From Promethearchaeota archaeon (GTDB taxonomy: Archaea; Asgardarchaeota; Hermodarchaeia; Hermodarchaeales; Hermodarchaeaceae), in NCBI GenBank assembly GCA_048939245.1, contig JBHLPR010000005.1, positions 1 through 64,000 of the forward strand: 64,000 bases of DNA, read 5' to 3'. Below are positions 14,567-19,663 of this stretch, in pieces. The position numbers were made by a program, and so were the translations under genes. Every line of letters begins with the position of its first letter. The first letter of the stretch is position 1. The notes under the pieces are model-generated. The model made no database searches and was not told where the DNA came from. It was given only the letters and a program-made list of their open reading frames with translations.

Positions 14567-17500
14567 CTATTCATCTTGTACAAGGAAGGTGAAATTGACT
14601 TCTGTTTCCGCGAATTTCAATCTCCCTTCAGCAGCTCCCTTTATAGTTGGTAGAGCATCACTAATTTCTACTGAAATGGCCCCTACTTTTGAAGAAATCG
14701 TTTCACTGGTTCTTTCTATTGCTTTCCTTAAATCCGGTGATTTTGTCGCCACATGAAGTCGGATATTTTGTGTAACGTGTAGTCCTGCTTTCTTACGTGT
14801 AGATTGAATTTGGCGAATTAAGTCCCGGGCAAGACGTTCCGCTTTGAGTTCTGGAGTCTCTGAAACATCAAGGTAGATTTTAGCAAATGATAACTCCTTT
14901 TCTTGGAAGGAGTCAGCCTTTACTTTTTTATGAATTTCCACAGTTTTTACGTTTGTTTGACTAGCAACAACATCATTGAAATGTTCAAGCTGAAATTCCT
15001 TCATTGAAGGTATAATGACTAGTCGTTGACAAGGCCAGCGAAGTTTAATTCCAGCTTCTTGTCGCATATACTGCACAGTTTCGACGATTTCCGCTGCCCA
15101 TTCCATTTCTTGGCTTAACTCAGGGTCGATGAGTTTCTCATTTACCGAAGGCCACTGAAGCATGTGCACGCTGGTGGGGGCATTAGGTTCAGCAGAACGA
15201 ATGAGTGCTTGATACATTTTTTCTGTTTGAAATGGTAAGACTGGAGCTAAAACTGTAAGAAGAGTGCGAAGGACATGATAGAGCGTTGTGAATGCTTGAG
15301 TTTTTGTTTCATCTTGAGAGCTAACCCACGTTCGAGGGCGGATGAGCTTAATATACCACCGACTCAGGTCTTTTACAACGAACTCTTCCATTAATCGAGG
15401 AACATAAGGTAATTCGTATTTATCCAATCGTTCAGTTACTTCTTTGATGAGTGTGTTCAATTGGGAGAGAATCCAGCGATCTTCCCACTGCAGATTCTTG
15501 GGGTTAAATTCGTGTTTACTTGGATCATAATCGGCTGCTTTCATGAAGGTGGTAGCAAAAACGTATACATTCCATAGAATCGATAAGCTACGTCGTGTGT
15601 CTTCAACATCTTTCCAGAGAAAGTGCATATCTTCTCCAGGCCCAGTACTCTTGATACTATAGATTCGAAGTGTCTCTGCACCAACTTTTTTCACTATCTC
15701 TTCTGGAAGAAGGCCTGTTCCCTTTGATTTGGACATAGGTCGACCTTGTTCATCAGTCGTGAAGCCATGCATATACACATTTCTGTATGGTTCTCGATCA
15801 GCTACAAGCATAGTCGAGTTGAAGAGCACGTTGAACCAGTTGCTAATTTGATCTTTGCCTTCAATGACAAATTCAGCTGTTTCCCAATTATCAAAGTCTT
15901 TTGTCCCATATGTAGCCCATCGTGTGGCCCATGGAGCAACACCACTCTCTAACCATACATCTAGAACATCGGGAATTCGTGACATAGTACCTTTGCATTT
16001 AGCGCAATTCCAGGTGACTTCATCAATCCAAGGTCTATGAAGGTTCTCAAGATTAATGTCTGTTTTTTCGGCTAATTCATCAAAGCTACCAATCACTTCC
16101 ATTTGATTGCATTTATCACAGATCCAAATGGGCAAGGGTGCGCCCCAATAGCGTTGACGTGATATACACCAATCACGGAGATTTTGTACCCAGTTTCGGA
16201 ACCAAGTATGGCCAGCCCAATCCGGAACCCATTTTACATCTTCGTTCTTTTTGATGATATCATTCCTAAGATTACTTACACGTAAAAACCATTGATCCGT
16301 AGCCAAATAGATTAAAGGGCTATTACATCGCCAACAATGCGCATATTCGTGTTCAATGGTATCTTGATGTACTAACAAGTTCTTCATACGTAAATCTTCA
16401 AGTACAGCTTCGCTTGCCTTTTCCACCCGCATTCCCGCGTATTTTCCTCCATCTTCAGAAAAAGTGCCAGAAAAAGTCACTGGACAAAAAATGGGAATTC
16501 CTTCCCGAACACCCACTTCGAAATCTTCCGGACCATGCCCTGGCGCCATATGAACAATACCAGTACCTTGTTCCAATGTTACATACTCATCACTTAATAG
16601 GACAGAATGAACTTTCTTTGAATCTTTATGGAATTGAGCTTGGCGAGGAACTTCATCAACCAAAGGGTGTTCGTATCGGAGACCGAGAAGTTCTGAACCT
16701 TTTACCTGTTCTATGACCTCATATGATTTGTTCAGTAATGCTTGGAGAATGATATTGGCTAACCCCTTTGCCAGAATCCAAATTTCATGATCAACACGAA
16801 CCCTAACGTATTCATATTCGGGGTTCACCATCACAGCCATATTCGCTGGTAGGGTCCAAGGAGTCGTAGTCCAAATAATTATGAATTCATCTTTTCTGCC
16901 AATTACAGGAAACTTAACCCAAATTGAATAATCTTCAATTGTGCGATACTCGTGCTCGCGTTTTGCTAAAGCTGTTTCACAGCGAACACAGCAATCAATC
17001 GATCGTAAGCCACGATATAAAAAGCCGCGTTCATGGGCACGTTTCATCAGATACCAAGTTCCTTCAATGTAAGGGTTATCAATTGTGCGATAGGGATGTT
17101 CCCAATCCATCCAAACCCCCAATCGTTTGAATTGCTCAGTCATCCGATTTAAATTGGAGAGCGCAAACTTCTGGCATCGTTCAATGAATTTATCAACACC
17201 AATTGTTGTTTCGATATCCAGCTTCGATTTGAGTCCTAGTTCTTTTTCAACATGCACTTCAATTGGTAATCCATGCATGTCAAATCCCGGTGTGTCTATT
17301 ACACGAAATCCTCGCATCCTTCGATATCGTAGAACTAGGTCTTTCATGATCTTATTCCATGCAGTTCCTAAGTGAATAGCACCGGTTGTATAGGGTGGAC
17401 CGTCCAGAAATTGGAATACCGGACGTTCTCGAAGTTGTTCAGTTATTTTCGAGTATACTTGATGTTTCTCCCAGAATTGGAGTATCTCTTCTTCTAAGGA

Positions 17501-17581
17501 GGGAAGATCAAAATTCTTTGGAAGCTCTGAAACTGGCATTGCATGCATATGCTCCATTAATTTCTGATGTAAGCCTACCAA
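14567..17581 (-). CDS. ileS: Isoleucyl-tRNA synthetase (start probably one of the ATGs near 17539-17557)
   Basis: FLDGPPYTTGAIHLGT (HIGH-like), IWTTTPWTLPAN, DWCISRQRYWG, PMSKS. Confidence 0.97.
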   Translation of the reverse strand: MVGLHQKLMEHMHAMPVSELPKNFDLPSLEEEILQFWEKHQVYSKITEQLRERPVFQFLDGPPYTTGAIHLGTAWNKIMKDLVLRYRRMRGFRVIDTPGFDMHGLPIEVHVEKELGLKSKLDIETTIGVDKFIERCQKFALSNLNRMTEQFKRLGVWMDWEHPYRTIDNPYIEGTWYLMKRAHERGFLYRGLRSIDCCVRCETALAKREHEYRTIEDYSIWVKFPVIGRKDEFIIIWTTTPWTLPANMAVMVNPEYEYVRVRVDHEIWILAKGLANIILQALLNKSYEVIEQVKGSELLGLRYEHPLVDEVPRQAQFHKDSKKVHSVLLSDEYVTLEQGTGIVHMAPGHGPEDFEVGVREGIPIFCPVTFSGTFSEDGGKYAGMRVEKASEAVLEDLRMKNLLVHQDTIEHEYAHCWRCNSPLIYLATDQWFLRVSNLRNDIIKKNEDVKWVPDWAGHTWFRNWVQNLRDWCISRQRYWGAPLPIWICDKCNQMEVIGSFDELAEKTDINLENLHRPWIDEVTWNCAKCKGTMSRIPDVLDVWLESGVAPWATRWATYGTKDFDNWETAEFVIEGKDQISNWFNVLFNSTMLVADREPYRNVYMHGFTTDEQGRPMSKSKGTGLLPEEIVKKVGAETLRIYSIKSTGPGEDMHFLWKDVEDTRRSLSILWNVYVFATTFMKAADYDPSKHEFNPKNLQWEDRWILSQLNTLIKEVTERLDKYELPYVPRLMEEFVVKDLSRWYIKLIRPRTWVSSQDETKTQAFTTLYHVLRTLLTVLAPVLPFQTEKMYQALIRSAEPNAPTSVHMLQWPSVNEKLIDPELSQEMEWAAEIVETVQYMRQEAGIKLRWPCQRLVIIPSMKEFQLEHFNDVVASQTNVKTVEIHKKVKADSFQEKELSFAKIYLDVSETPELKAERLARDLIRQIQSTRKKAGLHVTQNIRLHVATKSPDLRKAIERTSETISSKVGAISVEISDALPTIKGAAEGRLKFAETEVNFTFLVQDE

Positions 17582-17709
17582 TCTTCAACCGCATAAAAAT
17601 GATTGGGCGAAATTAATTACCCAAGCCTAATAGCCCATGATGAACGAAACCAATATATGGACACAAACGTAAGTCAGACAAACCGAGCCCTCGTAAGGAG
17701 CAAGGCTAC

Positions 17710-18255
17710 ATGAGTATGCAACAACGCCAATATGTCCTCAAGGTCTGTGTTGTCGGTGATGGTGCCGTGGGCAAGACCAGCCTCATCATCCGTTACACCG
17801 AAGGGCACTTCCGCGAATCGTATATCATGACATCCTATCTGTAATTCAGATAAGACATGAAAGTTGGTACGAGCTTCGCGGTCAAGGAATTAACCTTCGG
17901 TGATACACTAGTCCGACTTCAGTTGTGGGATCTTGCTGGACAACCACACTTTAGTTCTGTACGCCCTGTTTTTTATCGTGGTGCCGCTGGCATTATCCTA
18001 GTTTATGATGTGACCCGTCGTCAGACCTTTGAAGCAATTCCAGCATGGTATACAGAGGTTTCACAGGTAACTGGAGCTGTGCCTACAGTCTTATTAGCGA
18101 ACAAAGTAGACTTAACAGACCAACGTGATGCCACAACCGAAGAAGGGATGGAATATGCACAACAGCTGGGATGGGGCTATTTTGAGACCAGCGCTAAAGA
18201 AGGTCAAGGAGTAACAGATGCTTTTAGACAAATAGCCTGGTCATGCATCAATTAA
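17710..18255 (+). CDS. Rab-like small GTPase, join(17710..17831,17862..18255), 171 aa after removing a 30-nt intron
   Basis: Exon 1: MSMQQRQYVLKVCVVGDGAVGKTSLIIRYTEGHFRESYIMT. Exon 2: VGTSFAVKE...LQLWDLAGQ...NKVDL...ETSAK. All G1-G5 boxes intact once the segment with two in-frame TAA is removed; AAGGAG SD-like site upstream. Confidence 0.88.
17832..17861 (+). other. Candidate BHB (tRNA-type) intron in mRNA
   Basis: CATG/CATG 4-bp central helix, 3-nt bulges AC^A and AA^A, intron hairpin TCCTATCTG/CAGATAAGA, exon-exon helix; splicing restores ATG ACA GTT GGT. Confidence 0.85.
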
Positions 18256-18263
18256 TCCTGCAA

Positions 18264-19166
18264 TTATTTTGATTTCGGTAAAAAATCGGTTAACTTGCGC
18301 GAACTAGTTTGATGAAGATAGATTGCACACTGCTGTGGTTCGATTTTCCGATATTCTAACCCGAGTTGTTCGAGGAGGGCATGTGTCCCCTTAGTAAGAC
18401 TAGGCGCAACGAGAACTCCACGAATTTCATTGCCCTCATCGGTTTGGAAACTTTTAATGTAGCCATGGAGTTGATGCACTGCTTCACTATCAGCTCGACG
18501 TCGTTTAACTTCGATGATTACTAATCGGTCTTCACTATCACGAGCAAAAATGTCTATAAACCCTGGCATGACTTTGCGTTCTCGTTGAATGGTTCGAAGC
18601 CCGGGTTCAATAAGTTCAGGATGAACACTGAGAACTTGTTGCATCTCATCCTCAGTCAGATACATACTGAATTCACCGGGATCATCGACTAGGTTTGCAC
18701 TTAACATCATAAGCGAAGAGAATTCAATTCGGACAGTTTCCCGTGGTTTCGCACGATTAGCAAAGAGGAAGAGAGTGTCATCTTCATAACTTACCTTAAG
18801 TGTGGCACCTGGTGGTTGCCAGTTCACTGGTTCAACCCCACTTTCTTTATGAACCAAGATTGTGCCATCACGCTTCAAGATTATTAGGCGTTCTCCCTCA
18901 GTAAGAACAGATCGTGCACGTCCTTGATATTCAACAAAGCAAGTGCCAACAATTTGAATAAAACGTTTTTGAGAAATAGCGTCTCCAAGAATAATAGAGG
19001 CTTCTTCCAGGGAAGGGGATTGGAGAAGCCAAATTTTATCGTTCACAGAAAACTCATGAGCTGGCAATGTCTTTCCCGTCGAAGTCACCCCCATAATTCT
19101 AAATAAGTATTCACTCGAAGATAGGAATTGTGCATAAAGTTCGGTTGTATGACGAATCAGCTCCAA
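18264..19166 (-). CDS. nucS: Mismatch endonuclease NucS/EndoMS (true start likely downstream of the ORF-track start)
   Basis: CFVEYQGRARS, KRDGTILVH, PVNWQPPG, IDIFARD...IIEVKR...AVHQL. Confidence 0.93.
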   Translation of the reverse strand: MELIRHTTELYAQFLSSSEYLFRIMGVTSTGKTLPAHEFSVNDKIWLLQSPSLEEASIILGDAISQKRFIQIVGTCFVEYQGRARSVLTEGERLIILKRDGTILVHKESGVEPVNWQPPGATLKVSYEDDTLFLFANRAKPRETVRIEFSSLMMLSANLVDDPGEFSMYLTEDEMQQVLSVHPELIEPGLRTIQRERKVMPGFIDIFARDSEDRLVIIEVKRRRADSEAVHQLHGYIKSFQTDEGNEIRGVLVAPSLTKGTHALLEQLGLEYRKIEPQQCAIYLHQTSSRKLTDFLPKSK

Positions 19167-19663
19167 TATATCATCGCAGGTATCGTCAAATTCAAGGAAT
19201 CAAGTATCAGGCTATAGCACCATTTCTACTGGAAGGTCCGATTATCGATGTTGGATTTGGCACCGGAATTGGATTAGCTTCAATTATCAAGCATTCTCCC
19301 GTGGTAGGTATCGACGGGTCTATTGAGATGTTACGGTTTGCAGCTGAGCAACTCAAAGAGATGAAACAAGGAAACCAAATGGTTTCGTTAGTATGTGCCT
19401 TAGCTGAAGCTTTGCCCGTTCGTGATTGCAGTGTTCCTTCTGTGGTTAGTGTGACAATGATTCAAAATCTAACTAGTGTAGTTCAAGGCATTGACGAACT
19501 TCGTAGAATCGTACAAAAGGATGGGCGATTGGCACTGACCAGTCTTTCAAAGGTTCTTCCACTCAAAGAACTCGAATCTAAAATTAAGATTAACTTCACT
19601 GTGATTACGCATTTTGAAAATCTTGCTGCAGAGGATGATGGACTAATATTCCGTCCGTCCTGA
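19130..19663 (+). CDS. Class I SAM-dependent methyltransferase
   Basis: IIDVGFGTG, VGIDGSIEML, AEALPV. Confidence 0.8.
   Translation: MHKVRLYDESAPIYHRRYRQIQGIKYQAIAPFLLEGPIIDVGFGTGIGLASIIKHSPVVGIDGSIEMLRFAAEQLKEMKQGNQMVSLVCALAEALPVRDCSVPSVVSVTMIQNLTSVVQGIDELRRIVQKDGRLALTSLSKVLPLKELESKIKINFTVITHFENLAAEDDGLIFRPS

What the first reader, a model, noticed from the sequence alone, without database searches (positions are those of the whole stretch)
17710..18255. Candidate tRNA-type (BHB) intron in the mRNA of a Rab-like GTPase
Seen: an otherwise intact Rab-like gene has 30 extra nt with two in-frame TAA inside switch I. The RNA folds into a complete BHB: central helix CATG(17826-29)/CATG(17856-59); 3-nt bulges ACA(17830-32) and AAA(17860-62); intron hairpin TCCTATCTG/CAGATAAGA; and an exon-exon helix of about 15 bp, CCGCGAA/TTCGCGG (17811-17/17875-81), TCGTAT/GTACGA and AT/GT. 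Cutting after the second base of each bulge (the EndA rule) and ligating gives AC^A, rebuilding exactly the G2 threonine codon: ...ESYIM-T-VGTSFAVK..., 171 aa. Unspliced mRNA yields a 44-aa stub. Established: EndA plus RtcB splice BHB introns, and the well-documented archaeal protein-gene case is crenarchaeal cbf5. Inference: an mRNA intron in a eukaryotic-signature gene of a probable Asgard archaeon, possibly a splicing-gated switch conceptually like HAC1/XBP1 non-spliceosomal splicing. I know of no prior description but cannot search the literature.
Basis: partly seen in the sequence, partly recalled or inferred. Interest (0 to 1): 0.95.

Follow-up and report, generated by a model that had tools for sequence, protein, structure and literature searches.

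The report
tRNA-type mini-intron in Asgard Rab-like gene
A Rab-like GTPase gene of an Asgard (Hermodarchaeia-type) archaeon is interrupted by a 30-base hairpin shaped like a tRNA intron, and comparison with relatives shows it almost certainly has to be cut out of the messenger RNA by the tRNA-splicing enzymes, which papers report inside an archaeal coding sequence only for the gene cbf5.

Summary
Window 17710-18255 (+) is a Ras/Rab-family gene with a clean 30-nt insert (17832-17861) carrying two in-frame TAA. Pfam Ras positions 1-31 lie before it and 32-158 after it.

The insert sits in a bulge-helix-bulge fold. Cutting after the second base of each bulge rebuilds the switch-I Thr codon and gives a 171-aa protein collinear with all intron-free orthologues.

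- **Recurrence:** the same insert, at the same site, is in five lineages from eight independent assemblies, spanning two genera.
- **Structure:** three hairpin pairs show compensatory changes; the central helix and both bulges never vary.
- **Selection:** spliced genes are under strong purifying selection (dN/dS 0.02-0.06, dS above 1.3). Synonymous sites in the exon-exon helix are conserved only where the intron is present.
- **Distribution:** it is patchy, with three well-supported sister pairs of one intron-bearing and one intron-free member.
- **Machinery:** the genome encodes EndA alpha and beta, RtcB and archease, and its cbf5 carries a similar insert.

No RNA data could be checked, so splicing is inferred. 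The HAC1-like switch idea is untested. This scan already reported the orthologous intron on other DNA (e1-5551977, e1-5551980, e1-5395915). I found no paper describing such introns in Asgard protein genes.

The parts
17694..17698 (+). Shine-Dalgarno-like GGAGC, 11 nt upstream of the start codon
   Evidence: Read from the sequence. GGAG at the same distance is conserved in L057, L060 and L061. Nothing similar precedes the internal ATG at 17857.
17710..17831 (+). Exon 1: Met1 to Met40 plus the first two bases (AC) of the Thr41 codon; it holds the P-loop GDGAVGKT
   Evidence: Pfam Ras positions 1-31, E 4.6e-9; translation.
17832..17861 (+). 30-nt BHB-type intron; 17833-17862 is equivalent because A flanks both cuts. 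It carries two in-frame TAA.
   Evidence: It is absent, precisely, from 11 same-genus and 3 sister-genus orthologues, and present in 5 lineages.
17826..17829 (+). Central 4-bp helix, 5' strand (CAUG); it pairs with 17856-17859
   Evidence: Invariant in all 5 variants and paired in every MFE fold.
17830..17832 (+). 5' bulge ACA; inferred cut after C17831
   Evidence: A 3-nt bulge in the MFE of all five variants. The cut rule between the 2nd and 3rd bulge residue comes from PMC2738675.
17833..17855 (+). Intron hairpin: 9-bp stem 17833-41/17847-55, loop UAAUU 17842-46
   Evidence: Three pairs show changes on both sides (U-A/C-G, C-G/U-A, C.A to C-G or U-A).
17856..17859 (+). Central helix, 3' strand (CAUG); its AUG opens the 132-aa ORF that gene callers report
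17860..17862 (+). 3' bulge AAA; inferred cut after A17861. It is part of a larger internal loop in the MFE fold.
   Evidence: invariant.
17811..17825 (+). 5' strand of the exon-exon outer helix (CCGCGAA, UCGUAU, AU)
   Evidence: 15 of 15 pairs in the four same-genus intron-bearers, 12 of 15 in L061, and 9-12 of 15 in intron-free orthologues.
17863..17881 (+). 3' strand of the exon-exon outer helix (GU, [UG], GUACGA, [GC], UUCGCGG)
17862..18255 (+). Exon 2: third base of Thr41, then VGTSF... to the stop; it holds G3 WDLAGQ, G4 NKVD and G5 ETSAK
   Evidence: Pfam Ras positions 32-158, E 2.9e-36; spliced product of 171 aa.

Best explanation
The 30 nt at 17832-17861 are an archaeal bulge-helix-bulge intron inside the coding sequence of a Ras/Rab-family small GTPase gene. 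In the pre-mRNA, the exon flanks pair with each other in an outer helix of about 15 bp. CAUG pairs with CAUG in a 4-bp central helix, and the intron interior forms a 9-bp hairpin. This presents the two splice sites in bulges on opposite strands. The heterotetrameric (alpha-beta)2 splicing endonuclease EndA cuts after the second base of each bulge. RtcB, with archease, joins the exons to give AC|A = Thr41, the switch-I (G2) threonine, and probably circularises the 30-nt intron. Only spliced mRNA encodes the 171-aa GTPase; unspliced mRNA ends after 44 codons. The fold, its conservation and covariation, the exact junction, selection on the exons and the presence of the enzymes are shown. Cleavage, ligation and any regulation are inferred. 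The intron is old: it predates the split of two genera. It has been lost precisely several times, or less likely spread by recombination.
For: - **Clean insert:** Pfam Ras positions 1-31 and 32-158 flank it. Removing it gives a 171-aa protein collinear with 14 intron-free orthologues, with Thr restored.
- **Recurrence:** the same 30-nt insert sits at the same site in G000, G003, G008, a JGI/ENA/Logan lineage (L057-59), Logan L060, and a sister-genus lineage (L061/62). That is eight independent assemblies.
- **Fold:** all five variants give the same MFE architecture, with z from -2.7 to -6.1. RNAalifold predicts it independently.
- **Pairing and covariation:** 95% of cells pair, against 26-41% when partners are slid. 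Three hairpin pairs change on both sides. The central helix and bulges are invariant.
- **Selection on the protein:** dN/dS between intron-bearers is 0.02-0.06 with dS 1.3-2.5, and exon 1 is equally conserved. The intron differs at only 4 of 30 positions between the window's copy (G000) and that of G003, all four in paired stem positions.
- **Constraint on the exon flanks:** third-codon-position identity in the exon helix region is 0.82 among intron-bearers, against 0.49 in the rest of the gene. Among intron-free genes it is 0.38 against 0.45.
- **Rarity of the architecture:** it occurs once in 5.0 million positions at this length.
- **Machinery:** there is an EndA alpha-like gene (best PDB matches are the catalytic subunits of Aeropyrum and Sulfolobus heterotetramers) and a beta-like gene, plus an archease-RtcB pair. 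Asgard EndA is reported as (alpha-beta)2 with the broad-specificity L1 loop (PMC5829648).
- **Second case in the same genome:** the cbf5 gene carries a 41-nt insert with the same bulge rule, restoring INLD|KPPGPTSHE.
- **No back-up copy:** the nearest paralogue is 47% identical.
Against: - I could reach no RNA evidence. Two scans of JGI metagenome contigs for the spliced junction found only one unspliced DNA contig.
- The 3' splice site is not a strict 3-nt bulge in the MFE fold. A fifth central pair and a 5-6-nt loop are predicted, so recognition depends on a relaxed-specificity EndA that has not been tested for this lineage.
- There are only five distinct sequences, which limits the covariation statistics. 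5 of 500 shuffles reach the observed score, and related sequences inflate such tests.
- High similarity of the exon flanks among intron-bearers could partly reflect recombination rather than constraint.
Confidence: 0.85

Rival explanations
1. This is a split gene. The 44-aa P-loop peptide and a 132-aa protein started at ATG 17857 are both made and reassemble into a GTPase. The conserved hairpin would then be an intercistronic RNA element.
For: Both ORFs are open, and gene callers report them as separate products. The ATG at 17857 is invariant.
Against: - That ATG is invariant because it is half of the palindromic central helix.
- No Shine-Dalgarno-like sequence precedes it, whereas GGAG precedes the true start in all lineages.
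- The break falls inside the Thr codon of switch I, and the 132-aa piece would start MK instead of T.
- This reading gives no reason for a 15-bp exon-exon helix, two bulges at exactly the frame-restoring positions, or synonymous-site constraint that is tied to the presence of the insert.
- I know of no small GTPase made from two such pieces (own knowledge).
Confidence: 0.04
2. The insert is removed or skipped by another mechanism: translational bypassing as in phage T4 gene 60, or cleavage by a nuclease other than EndA.
For: A hairpin with a stop codon soon after a possible take-off site, plus the direct repeat CATGA...CATGA, recall bypass elements.
Against: - Hopping from AUG 17827-29 to AUG 17857-59 would give ...IM-K-VGT and lose the invariant G2 threonine.
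- Landing on ACA at 17855-57 runs straight into TGA (read).
- The repeat is explained by the palindromic CAUG helix.
- The geometry matches the EndA rule exactly, and the same rule restores cbf5 in this genome.
Confidence: 0.04
3. This is a pseudogene: a Rab-like gene inactivated by a small insertion and now decaying.
For: There are in-frame stops, and NCBI annotation of relatives calls such pieces partial (P0016).
Against: - dN/dS is 0.02-0.06 between intron-bearing lineages whose synonymous sites are saturated.
- All 171 codons are intact in five lineages across two genera.
- The insert itself is conserved and shows compensatory changes.
Confidence: 0.02
4. This is an assembly or binning artefact.
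For: The genome is a 122-contig MAG.
Against: The insert recurs, with sequence differences, in eight assemblies from different projects (GTDB genomes G000, G003, G008; JGI 3300017971; ENA ERZ27256798; Logan SRR6963591, SRR30758825, SRR31656007/SRR34846496). All show the same IleRS - Rab - NucS synteny.
Confidence: 0.01

Closest known systems
BHB intron in the cbf5 (pseudouridine synthase) pre-mRNA of Crenarchaeota (Watanabe 2002; Yoshinari 2006; Yokobori 2009, PMC2738675)
   Same: - Both are short inserts (16 nt upwards in cbf5, 30 nt here) inside a coding sequence, and each disrupts the protein unless removed.
- Both have a BHB or relaxed BHB at the exon-intron borders.
- The predicted cuts lie between the 2nd and 3rd bulge residues.
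- The host lineage has a hetero-oligomeric, relaxed-specificity EndA.
- The distribution is patchy and is read as ancestral presence plus lineage-specific precise loss.
   Different: - The host gene differs: a Ras/Rab-family small GTPase, a eukaryotic-signature protein, rather than an RNA-modification enzyme.
- The phylum differs: Asgard/Promethearchaeota.
- Here a long (about 15 bp) exon-exon helix constrains synonymous sites.
- For cbf5, spliced cDNA and in vitro cleavage were shown. Here there is no RNA or enzyme evidence.
BHB introns of archaeal tRNA and rRNA genes, including the heavily interrupted tRNA genes of Asgard archaea (bioRxiv 10.64898/2026.10.13.758758; PMC5829648)
   Same: Both have the same motif, the same inferred enzymes (EndA, RtcB, archease) and a similar size range. 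This genome is reported by earlier notes of this scan to be rich in tRNA introns.
   Different: The substrate is an mRNA with no tRNA-like body around the motif. The splice junction is constrained by a reading frame rather than by a tRNA fold.
BHB intron in the 5' UTR of HVO_1309 mRNA, Haloferax volcanii (PMC7714728)
   Same: Both are mRNAs processed at a BHB by the splicing endonuclease. In Haloferax the circular intron was detected.
   Different: That intron lies in the untranslated leader and does not interrupt the protein. The host is a euryarchaeon with a homodimeric EndA.
HAC1/XBP1 unconventional cytoplasmic mRNA splicing in eukaryotes
   Same: Both are spliceosome-independent, protein-catalysed cut-and-join reactions on an mRNA that change the encoded protein. 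RtcB is the ligase in metazoa (own knowledge; PMC5829648 ref. 5).
   Different: In eukaryotes the nuclease is IRE1, which acts on twin stem-loops, not EndA on a BHB, and the reaction is stress-regulated. No IRE1 RNase domain was found here, though that search had no positive control. Nothing here shows regulation.

Membership tests
Archaeal BHB (EndA/RtcB-spliced) intron in a pre-mRNA | Two 3-nt bulges on opposite strands separated by a 4-bp helix, flanked by helices (strict hBHBh' or a relaxed form) | tested here: met
   The 5' bulge ACA, the 4-bp CAUG/CAUG helix, the intron hairpin and the outer helix appear in the MFE of all five variants and in the RNAalifold consensus. The 3' site is a strict AAA bulge only in the alternative drawing; the MFE gives a 5-6-nt loop, so the form is relaxed.
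Archaeal BHB (EndA/RtcB-spliced) intron in a pre-mRNA | Cuts between the 2nd and 3rd bulge residues give the functional junction | tested here: met
   AC|A restores Thr41. The 171-aa product is collinear with 14 intron-free orthologues. The rule is taken from PMC2738675.
Archaeal BHB (EndA/RtcB-spliced) intron in a pre-mRNA | Helices maintained in evolution (covariation) | tested here: met
   Three pairs change on both sides. 95% of cells pair, against 26-41% in slid controls. There are only 5 distinct sequences.
Archaeal BHB (EndA/RtcB-spliced) intron in a pre-mRNA | Splicing endonuclease and RNA ligase encoded by the host | tested here: met
   EndA alpha-like (C90) and beta-like (C59) genes, plus RtcB and archease (C53).
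Archaeal BHB (EndA/RtcB-spliced) intron in a pre-mRNA | Spliced mRNA and/or excised (circular) intron observed | not testable with these tools
   No RNA data were available. Junction scans of metagenome contigs returned only unspliced DNA.
Archaeal BHB (EndA/RtcB-spliced) intron in a pre-mRNA | Cleavage by EndA in vitro at the predicted sites | not testable with these tools
   This needs a bench experiment.
Ras/Rab-family small GTPase (Pfam PF00071) | G1-G5 motifs in order and a full-length profile match | tested here: met
   Ras profile positions 1-31 and 32-158 of 162 match. The spliced product holds GDGAVGKT, T41, WDLAGQ, NKVD and ETSAK. Sources name relatives 'Rab family GTPase'.
HAC1/XBP1-type regulated unconventional splicing | IRE1 kinase/RNase cutting twin stem-loops, under stress control | tested here: not met
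   The motif is a BHB, not twin IRE1 stem-loops. No Ribonuc_2-5A domain was found in an 88%-complete genome, but the control genomes could not ring. Regulation was not testable.
Group I / group II self-splicing introns and other Rfam families | Ribozyme core | tested here: not met
   The insert is only 30 nt. Rfam gave no match at E <= 1 in 17500-18400.

The most novel reading that the evidence does not exclude
The intron is kept by selection, not merely tolerated. On this reading, splicing by EndA/RtcB-archease is rate-limiting or regulated, so output of this Rab-like GTPase is gated at the RNA level: unspliced mRNA gives a 44-aa P-loop stub and spliced mRNA gives the GTPase. That would be a prokaryotic counterpart of HAC1/XBP1-type unconventional splicing in the closest archaeal relatives of eukaryotes. 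Its age (two genera) and strong sequence conservation beside repeated loss in sister lineages do not exclude this reading, but they do not require it either.
Probability: 0.1. Interest if true: 0.9.

Novelty: new member of a known kind. Interest (0 to 1): 0.7.

Why it matters
In the papers I could search, protein-catalysed (tRNA-type) splicing inside an archaeal coding sequence is documented only for cbf5 in Crenarchaeota. A 2020 study still calls cbf5 the only additional example (PMC7714728). Here the same kind of intron sits in a eukaryotic-signature small GTPase gene of an Asgard archaeon. It is old, it is under selection, and it is needed for the protein to be made.

If RNA data confirm it, three things follow:
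- Asgard gene catalogues under-call or split such genes. Gene callers and NCBI currently report 44-aa, 132-aa or 'partial' products.
- mRNA cut-and-rejoin by EndA/RtcB existed in the lineage nearest to eukaryotes. This bears on the origin of unconventional mRNA splicing and on how interrupted genes were tolerated before the spliceosome.
- The three intron-bearing/intron-free sister pairs offer a natural system to study precise intron loss in a prokaryote.

A second gene in this genome (cbf5) and a twice-interrupted Rab-like gene in another Asgard family suggest this is not a one-off.

Tried and rejected
- **De novo genome screens:** I screened for BHB motifs whose removal fuses two open frames (then stricter). 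Real cut positions gave 2070 and 242 hits. Shifted-cut controls gave about 2150 and 213-243. There was no enrichment, so the screens say nothing about how many mRNA introns this genome has. The first screen also missed the real site, because its outer helix is interrupted after 2 bp.
- **Other copies of the intron:** blastn-short against the genome found none beyond chance matches of 16 nt or less. It is not a repeated mobile element.
- **Spliced-junction scans:** the first scan of JGI metagenome contigs found nothing. A looser pattern found only the unspliced JGI contig.
- **Spliced products among protein hits:** I looked for a 171-aa protein at least 97% identical to a spliced product, which could be a transcript or a very recent loss. 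The best match was 96%, and it is probably the intron-free sister.
- **Rfam:** no match.
- **IRE1 RNase domain:** none found, but the search was uninformative because no control genome rang.
- **Translational bypass:** rejected, because it would replace the G2 Thr by Lys or meet a stop.
- **Loss by slippage between the CATGA repeats:** rejected as the route of loss, because it would leave AAA (Lys). All intron-free orthologues have ACN.
- **Single origin with one clade of intron-bearers:** rejected by AU tests, p = 0.01 on the gene tree and p about 1e-65 on the flank tree.
- **Recombination against constraint:** I could not separate these as the cause of the flank similarity.

Full report
**1. 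The observation**

A 44-aa ORF (17710-17844) and a 132-aa ORF (17857-18255) lie in the same frame. Between them are ten codons that include TAA at 17842-44 and at 17851-53.

Pfam places Ras-family profile positions 1-31 in the first piece and 32-158 in the second. The interruption is therefore a clean insertion with no loss or duplication of protein sequence.

The 30 nt at 17832-17861 (equally 17833-17862) are flanked by three structural features:
- CAUG 17826-29 pairs with CAUG 17856-59.
- The bulges are ACA 17830-32 and AAA 17860-62.
- A 9-bp hairpin (17833-41/17847-55) has one C.A mismatch.

The exon flanks 17811-25 and 17863-81 also pair. ViennaRNA recovers this architecture as both MFE and centroid, with z = -3.9 for 81 nt and z = -2.5 for 93 nt.

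There is one nuance. The MFE adds U17825-A17860 and leaves the 3' site in a 6-nt internal loop. The strict 3-nt bulge, closed by U.G and A-U, is an alternative drawing. The motif is thus canonical at the 5' site and relaxed at the 3' site.

Chance does not explain the structure. For an insert length of 30, the core motif occurs at 60 of 5.0 million positions in this genome. With the second outer helix it occurs only here.

**2. What the gene is and where it lives**

The window is contig C26 of a 2.52-Mb, 122-contig, 88%-complete genome. That genome carries 23 Ras-superfamily matches.

Sources name the closest relatives of this protein 'Rab family GTPase' from Candidatus Hermodarchaeia or Promethearchaeota MAGs. 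The organism is therefore an Asgard archaeon.

This is the only one of the 23 paralogues with a truncated frame. The nearest paralogue is 47% identical, so there is no back-up copy.

The spliced product is 171 aa and holds G1 GDGAVGKT, G2 Thr41, G3 WDLAGQ, G4 NKVD and G5 ETSAK. The gene lies between IleRS and NucS, and this synteny is conserved across two genera.

**3. Comparative evidence**

*Presence and absence.* All 14 other species of the genus and 3 of the sister genus have one orthologue.
- Eleven same-genus and three sister-genus orthologues lack the 30 nt precisely. They read ...ATG ACN GTN GG....
- G003 and G008 carry a 30-nt insert at the identical site.
- Protein-to-contig look-ups added a fourth same-genus lineage found in JGI, ENA and Logan assemblies (L057-59).
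- They also added a Logan copy of the G008 type (L060).
- A fifth lineage belongs with the sister genus (L061/62).
- Eight independent assemblies rule out an artefact.

*Structure in the five distinct sequences.*
- The central helix and both bulges are invariant.
- Three hairpin pairs change on both sides: U-A/C-G, C-G/U-G/U-A, and the C.A mismatch becomes C-G or U-A.
- Overall, 95% of cells pair, against 26-41% when partners are slid.
- RNAalifold predicts the same structure without guidance.
- Each variant folds into it on its own, with z from -2.7 to -6.1.

*Selection.*
- Between intron-bearing lineages dN/dS is 0.02-0.06 while dS is 1.3-2.5, and exon 1 is as conserved as exon 2.
- Against this saturated background, the intron differs at only 4 of 30 positions between the window's copy (G000) and that of G003. 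All four lie in paired stem positions.
- The exon segments that form the outer helix show third-codon-position identity of 0.82 among intron-bearers, against 0.49 in the rest of the gene.
- Among intron-free genes the same segments show 0.38, against 0.45 elsewhere.
- The outer helix has 15 of 15 pairs in the four same-genus intron-bearers, 12 of 15 in the sister-genus one, and 9-12 of 15 where the intron is absent.
- An RNA-level constraint on coding sequence that appears only together with the insert is what a splicing substrate predicts. A pseudogene or split gene does not predict it.

**4. History**

I built a tree from the flanking IleRS N-terminus plus NucS (704 columns). It gives three sister pairs with 99-100% support, each made of one intron-bearing and one intron-free lineage: G008/G001, G003/G004 and L061/G016. 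Monophyly of the intron-bearers is rejected (gene tree).

The intron sequences of the two genera are clearly homologous. The simplest history is one ancient gain followed by at least four or five precise losses. Yokobori et al. inferred the same pattern for cbf5 and suggested replacement by a copy of the spliced mRNA (PMC2738675).

Slippage between the CATGA repeats would leave Lys instead of Thr, so it cannot be the route of loss (read).

G003 and G008 are somewhat more alike just 3' of the helix than they are to their own sisters. Spread by recombination is therefore not excluded.

**5. Machinery**

The genome encodes the enzymes this mechanism needs.
- One EndA paralogue has the catalytic alpha subunits of the Aeropyrum, Sulfolobus and Pyrobaculum heterotetramers as its best solved relatives.
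- A second EndA paralogue matches the structural half of fused enzymes and the beta subunits.
- An archease-RtcB gene pair is present.

Asgard EndAs have been described as (alpha-beta)2 enzymes with the L1 loop that confers relaxed BHB recognition (PMC5829648). That fits the relaxed 3' site.

The cbf5 gene of this same genome is interrupted by 41 nt with CUGG/CCGG as central helix and AUA/AAA as bulges. The same cut rule restores INLD|KPPGPTSHE.

**6. Rivals**

- **Split gene:** there is no ribosome-binding sequence before the internal ATG, whereas GGAG precedes the true start in all lineages. This reading also does not explain the bulges or the exon helix.
- **Translational bypass:** it would lose the G2 threonine or meet a stop codon.
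- **Pseudogene:** contradicted by the selection data.
- **Artefact:** contradicted by recurrence in independent assemblies.
- **Known RNA family or ribozyme:** excluded by size and by Rfam.

**7. What remains inferred**

I could obtain no RNA. Cleavage, ligation, intron circularisation and any regulation are therefore inferences.

Nothing supports the HAC1/XBP1-like switch beyond the bare fact that unspliced mRNA encodes a 44-aa stub. I rate it at about 10%.

**8. Novelty**

Full-text searches found no paper describing BHB introns in Asgard protein-coding genes. The recent Asgard intron census concerns tRNA genes only. A 2020 paper states that cbf5 is the only BHB intron reported in an archaeal coding region besides its own 5'-UTR case.

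The mechanism is the known cbf5 kind. The host gene and the phylum are new, so I class this as a new member of a known kind.

Within this scan, the orthologous intron was already reported on other genomes (e1-5551977, e1-5551980, e1-5395915). Similar introns were reported in other Asgard GTPase genes.

In passing, I saw a Rab-like gene with two such inserts in another Asgard family.

Noticed in passing
G000 contig C44, minus strand (locus L065, about 130 nt upstream of the KPPGPTSHE codons): The cbf5 gene of the same genome carries a 41-nt insert with a CUGG/CCGG central helix and AUA/AAA bulges. Cutting after the second bulge base restores INLD|KPPGPTSHE. The classic archaeal mRNA-intron host is thus also interrupted here, at motif I.
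   Followed up: partly
L066 (G024:C1:995700-996900), a genome of another Asgard family: A Rab-like gene appears to be interrupted twice. One insert lies inside the P-loop (KVILAGDG ... TVGKTS). The other lies in switch I just after Thr-Ile (KKTI ... GIDIF), a few bases from the position of the intron studied here. I did not fold it or compare it with relatives.
   Followed up: partly
window 18238-18252 and the orthologues (spliced products): All same-genus orthologues end in ...AWSCIN...AWSCIS or a close variant (AWTCIS, AWTCVS, AWSCIG), except one that ends AWTGVS without the Cys. The conserved Cys lies three residues from the C-terminus, which is not a classical Rab CC/CXC or CAAX tail. Whether it is lipidated is unknown.
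   Followed up: no
window 14567-19663: The gene order IleRS (-), Rab-like (+), NucS/EndoMS (-), SAM methyltransferase (+) is conserved across two genera and in unbinned contigs.
   Followed up: partly
L024 and L030, spliced CDS positions 145-200: The intron-bearing genes of G003 and G008 are not sister lineages. Just 3' of the exon helix they are 0.84 identical to each other, against 0.67 and 0.78 to their intron-free sisters. This is a weak hint of a short recombination tract that carries the intron.
   Followed up: partly
I did not check it.
   Followed up: no
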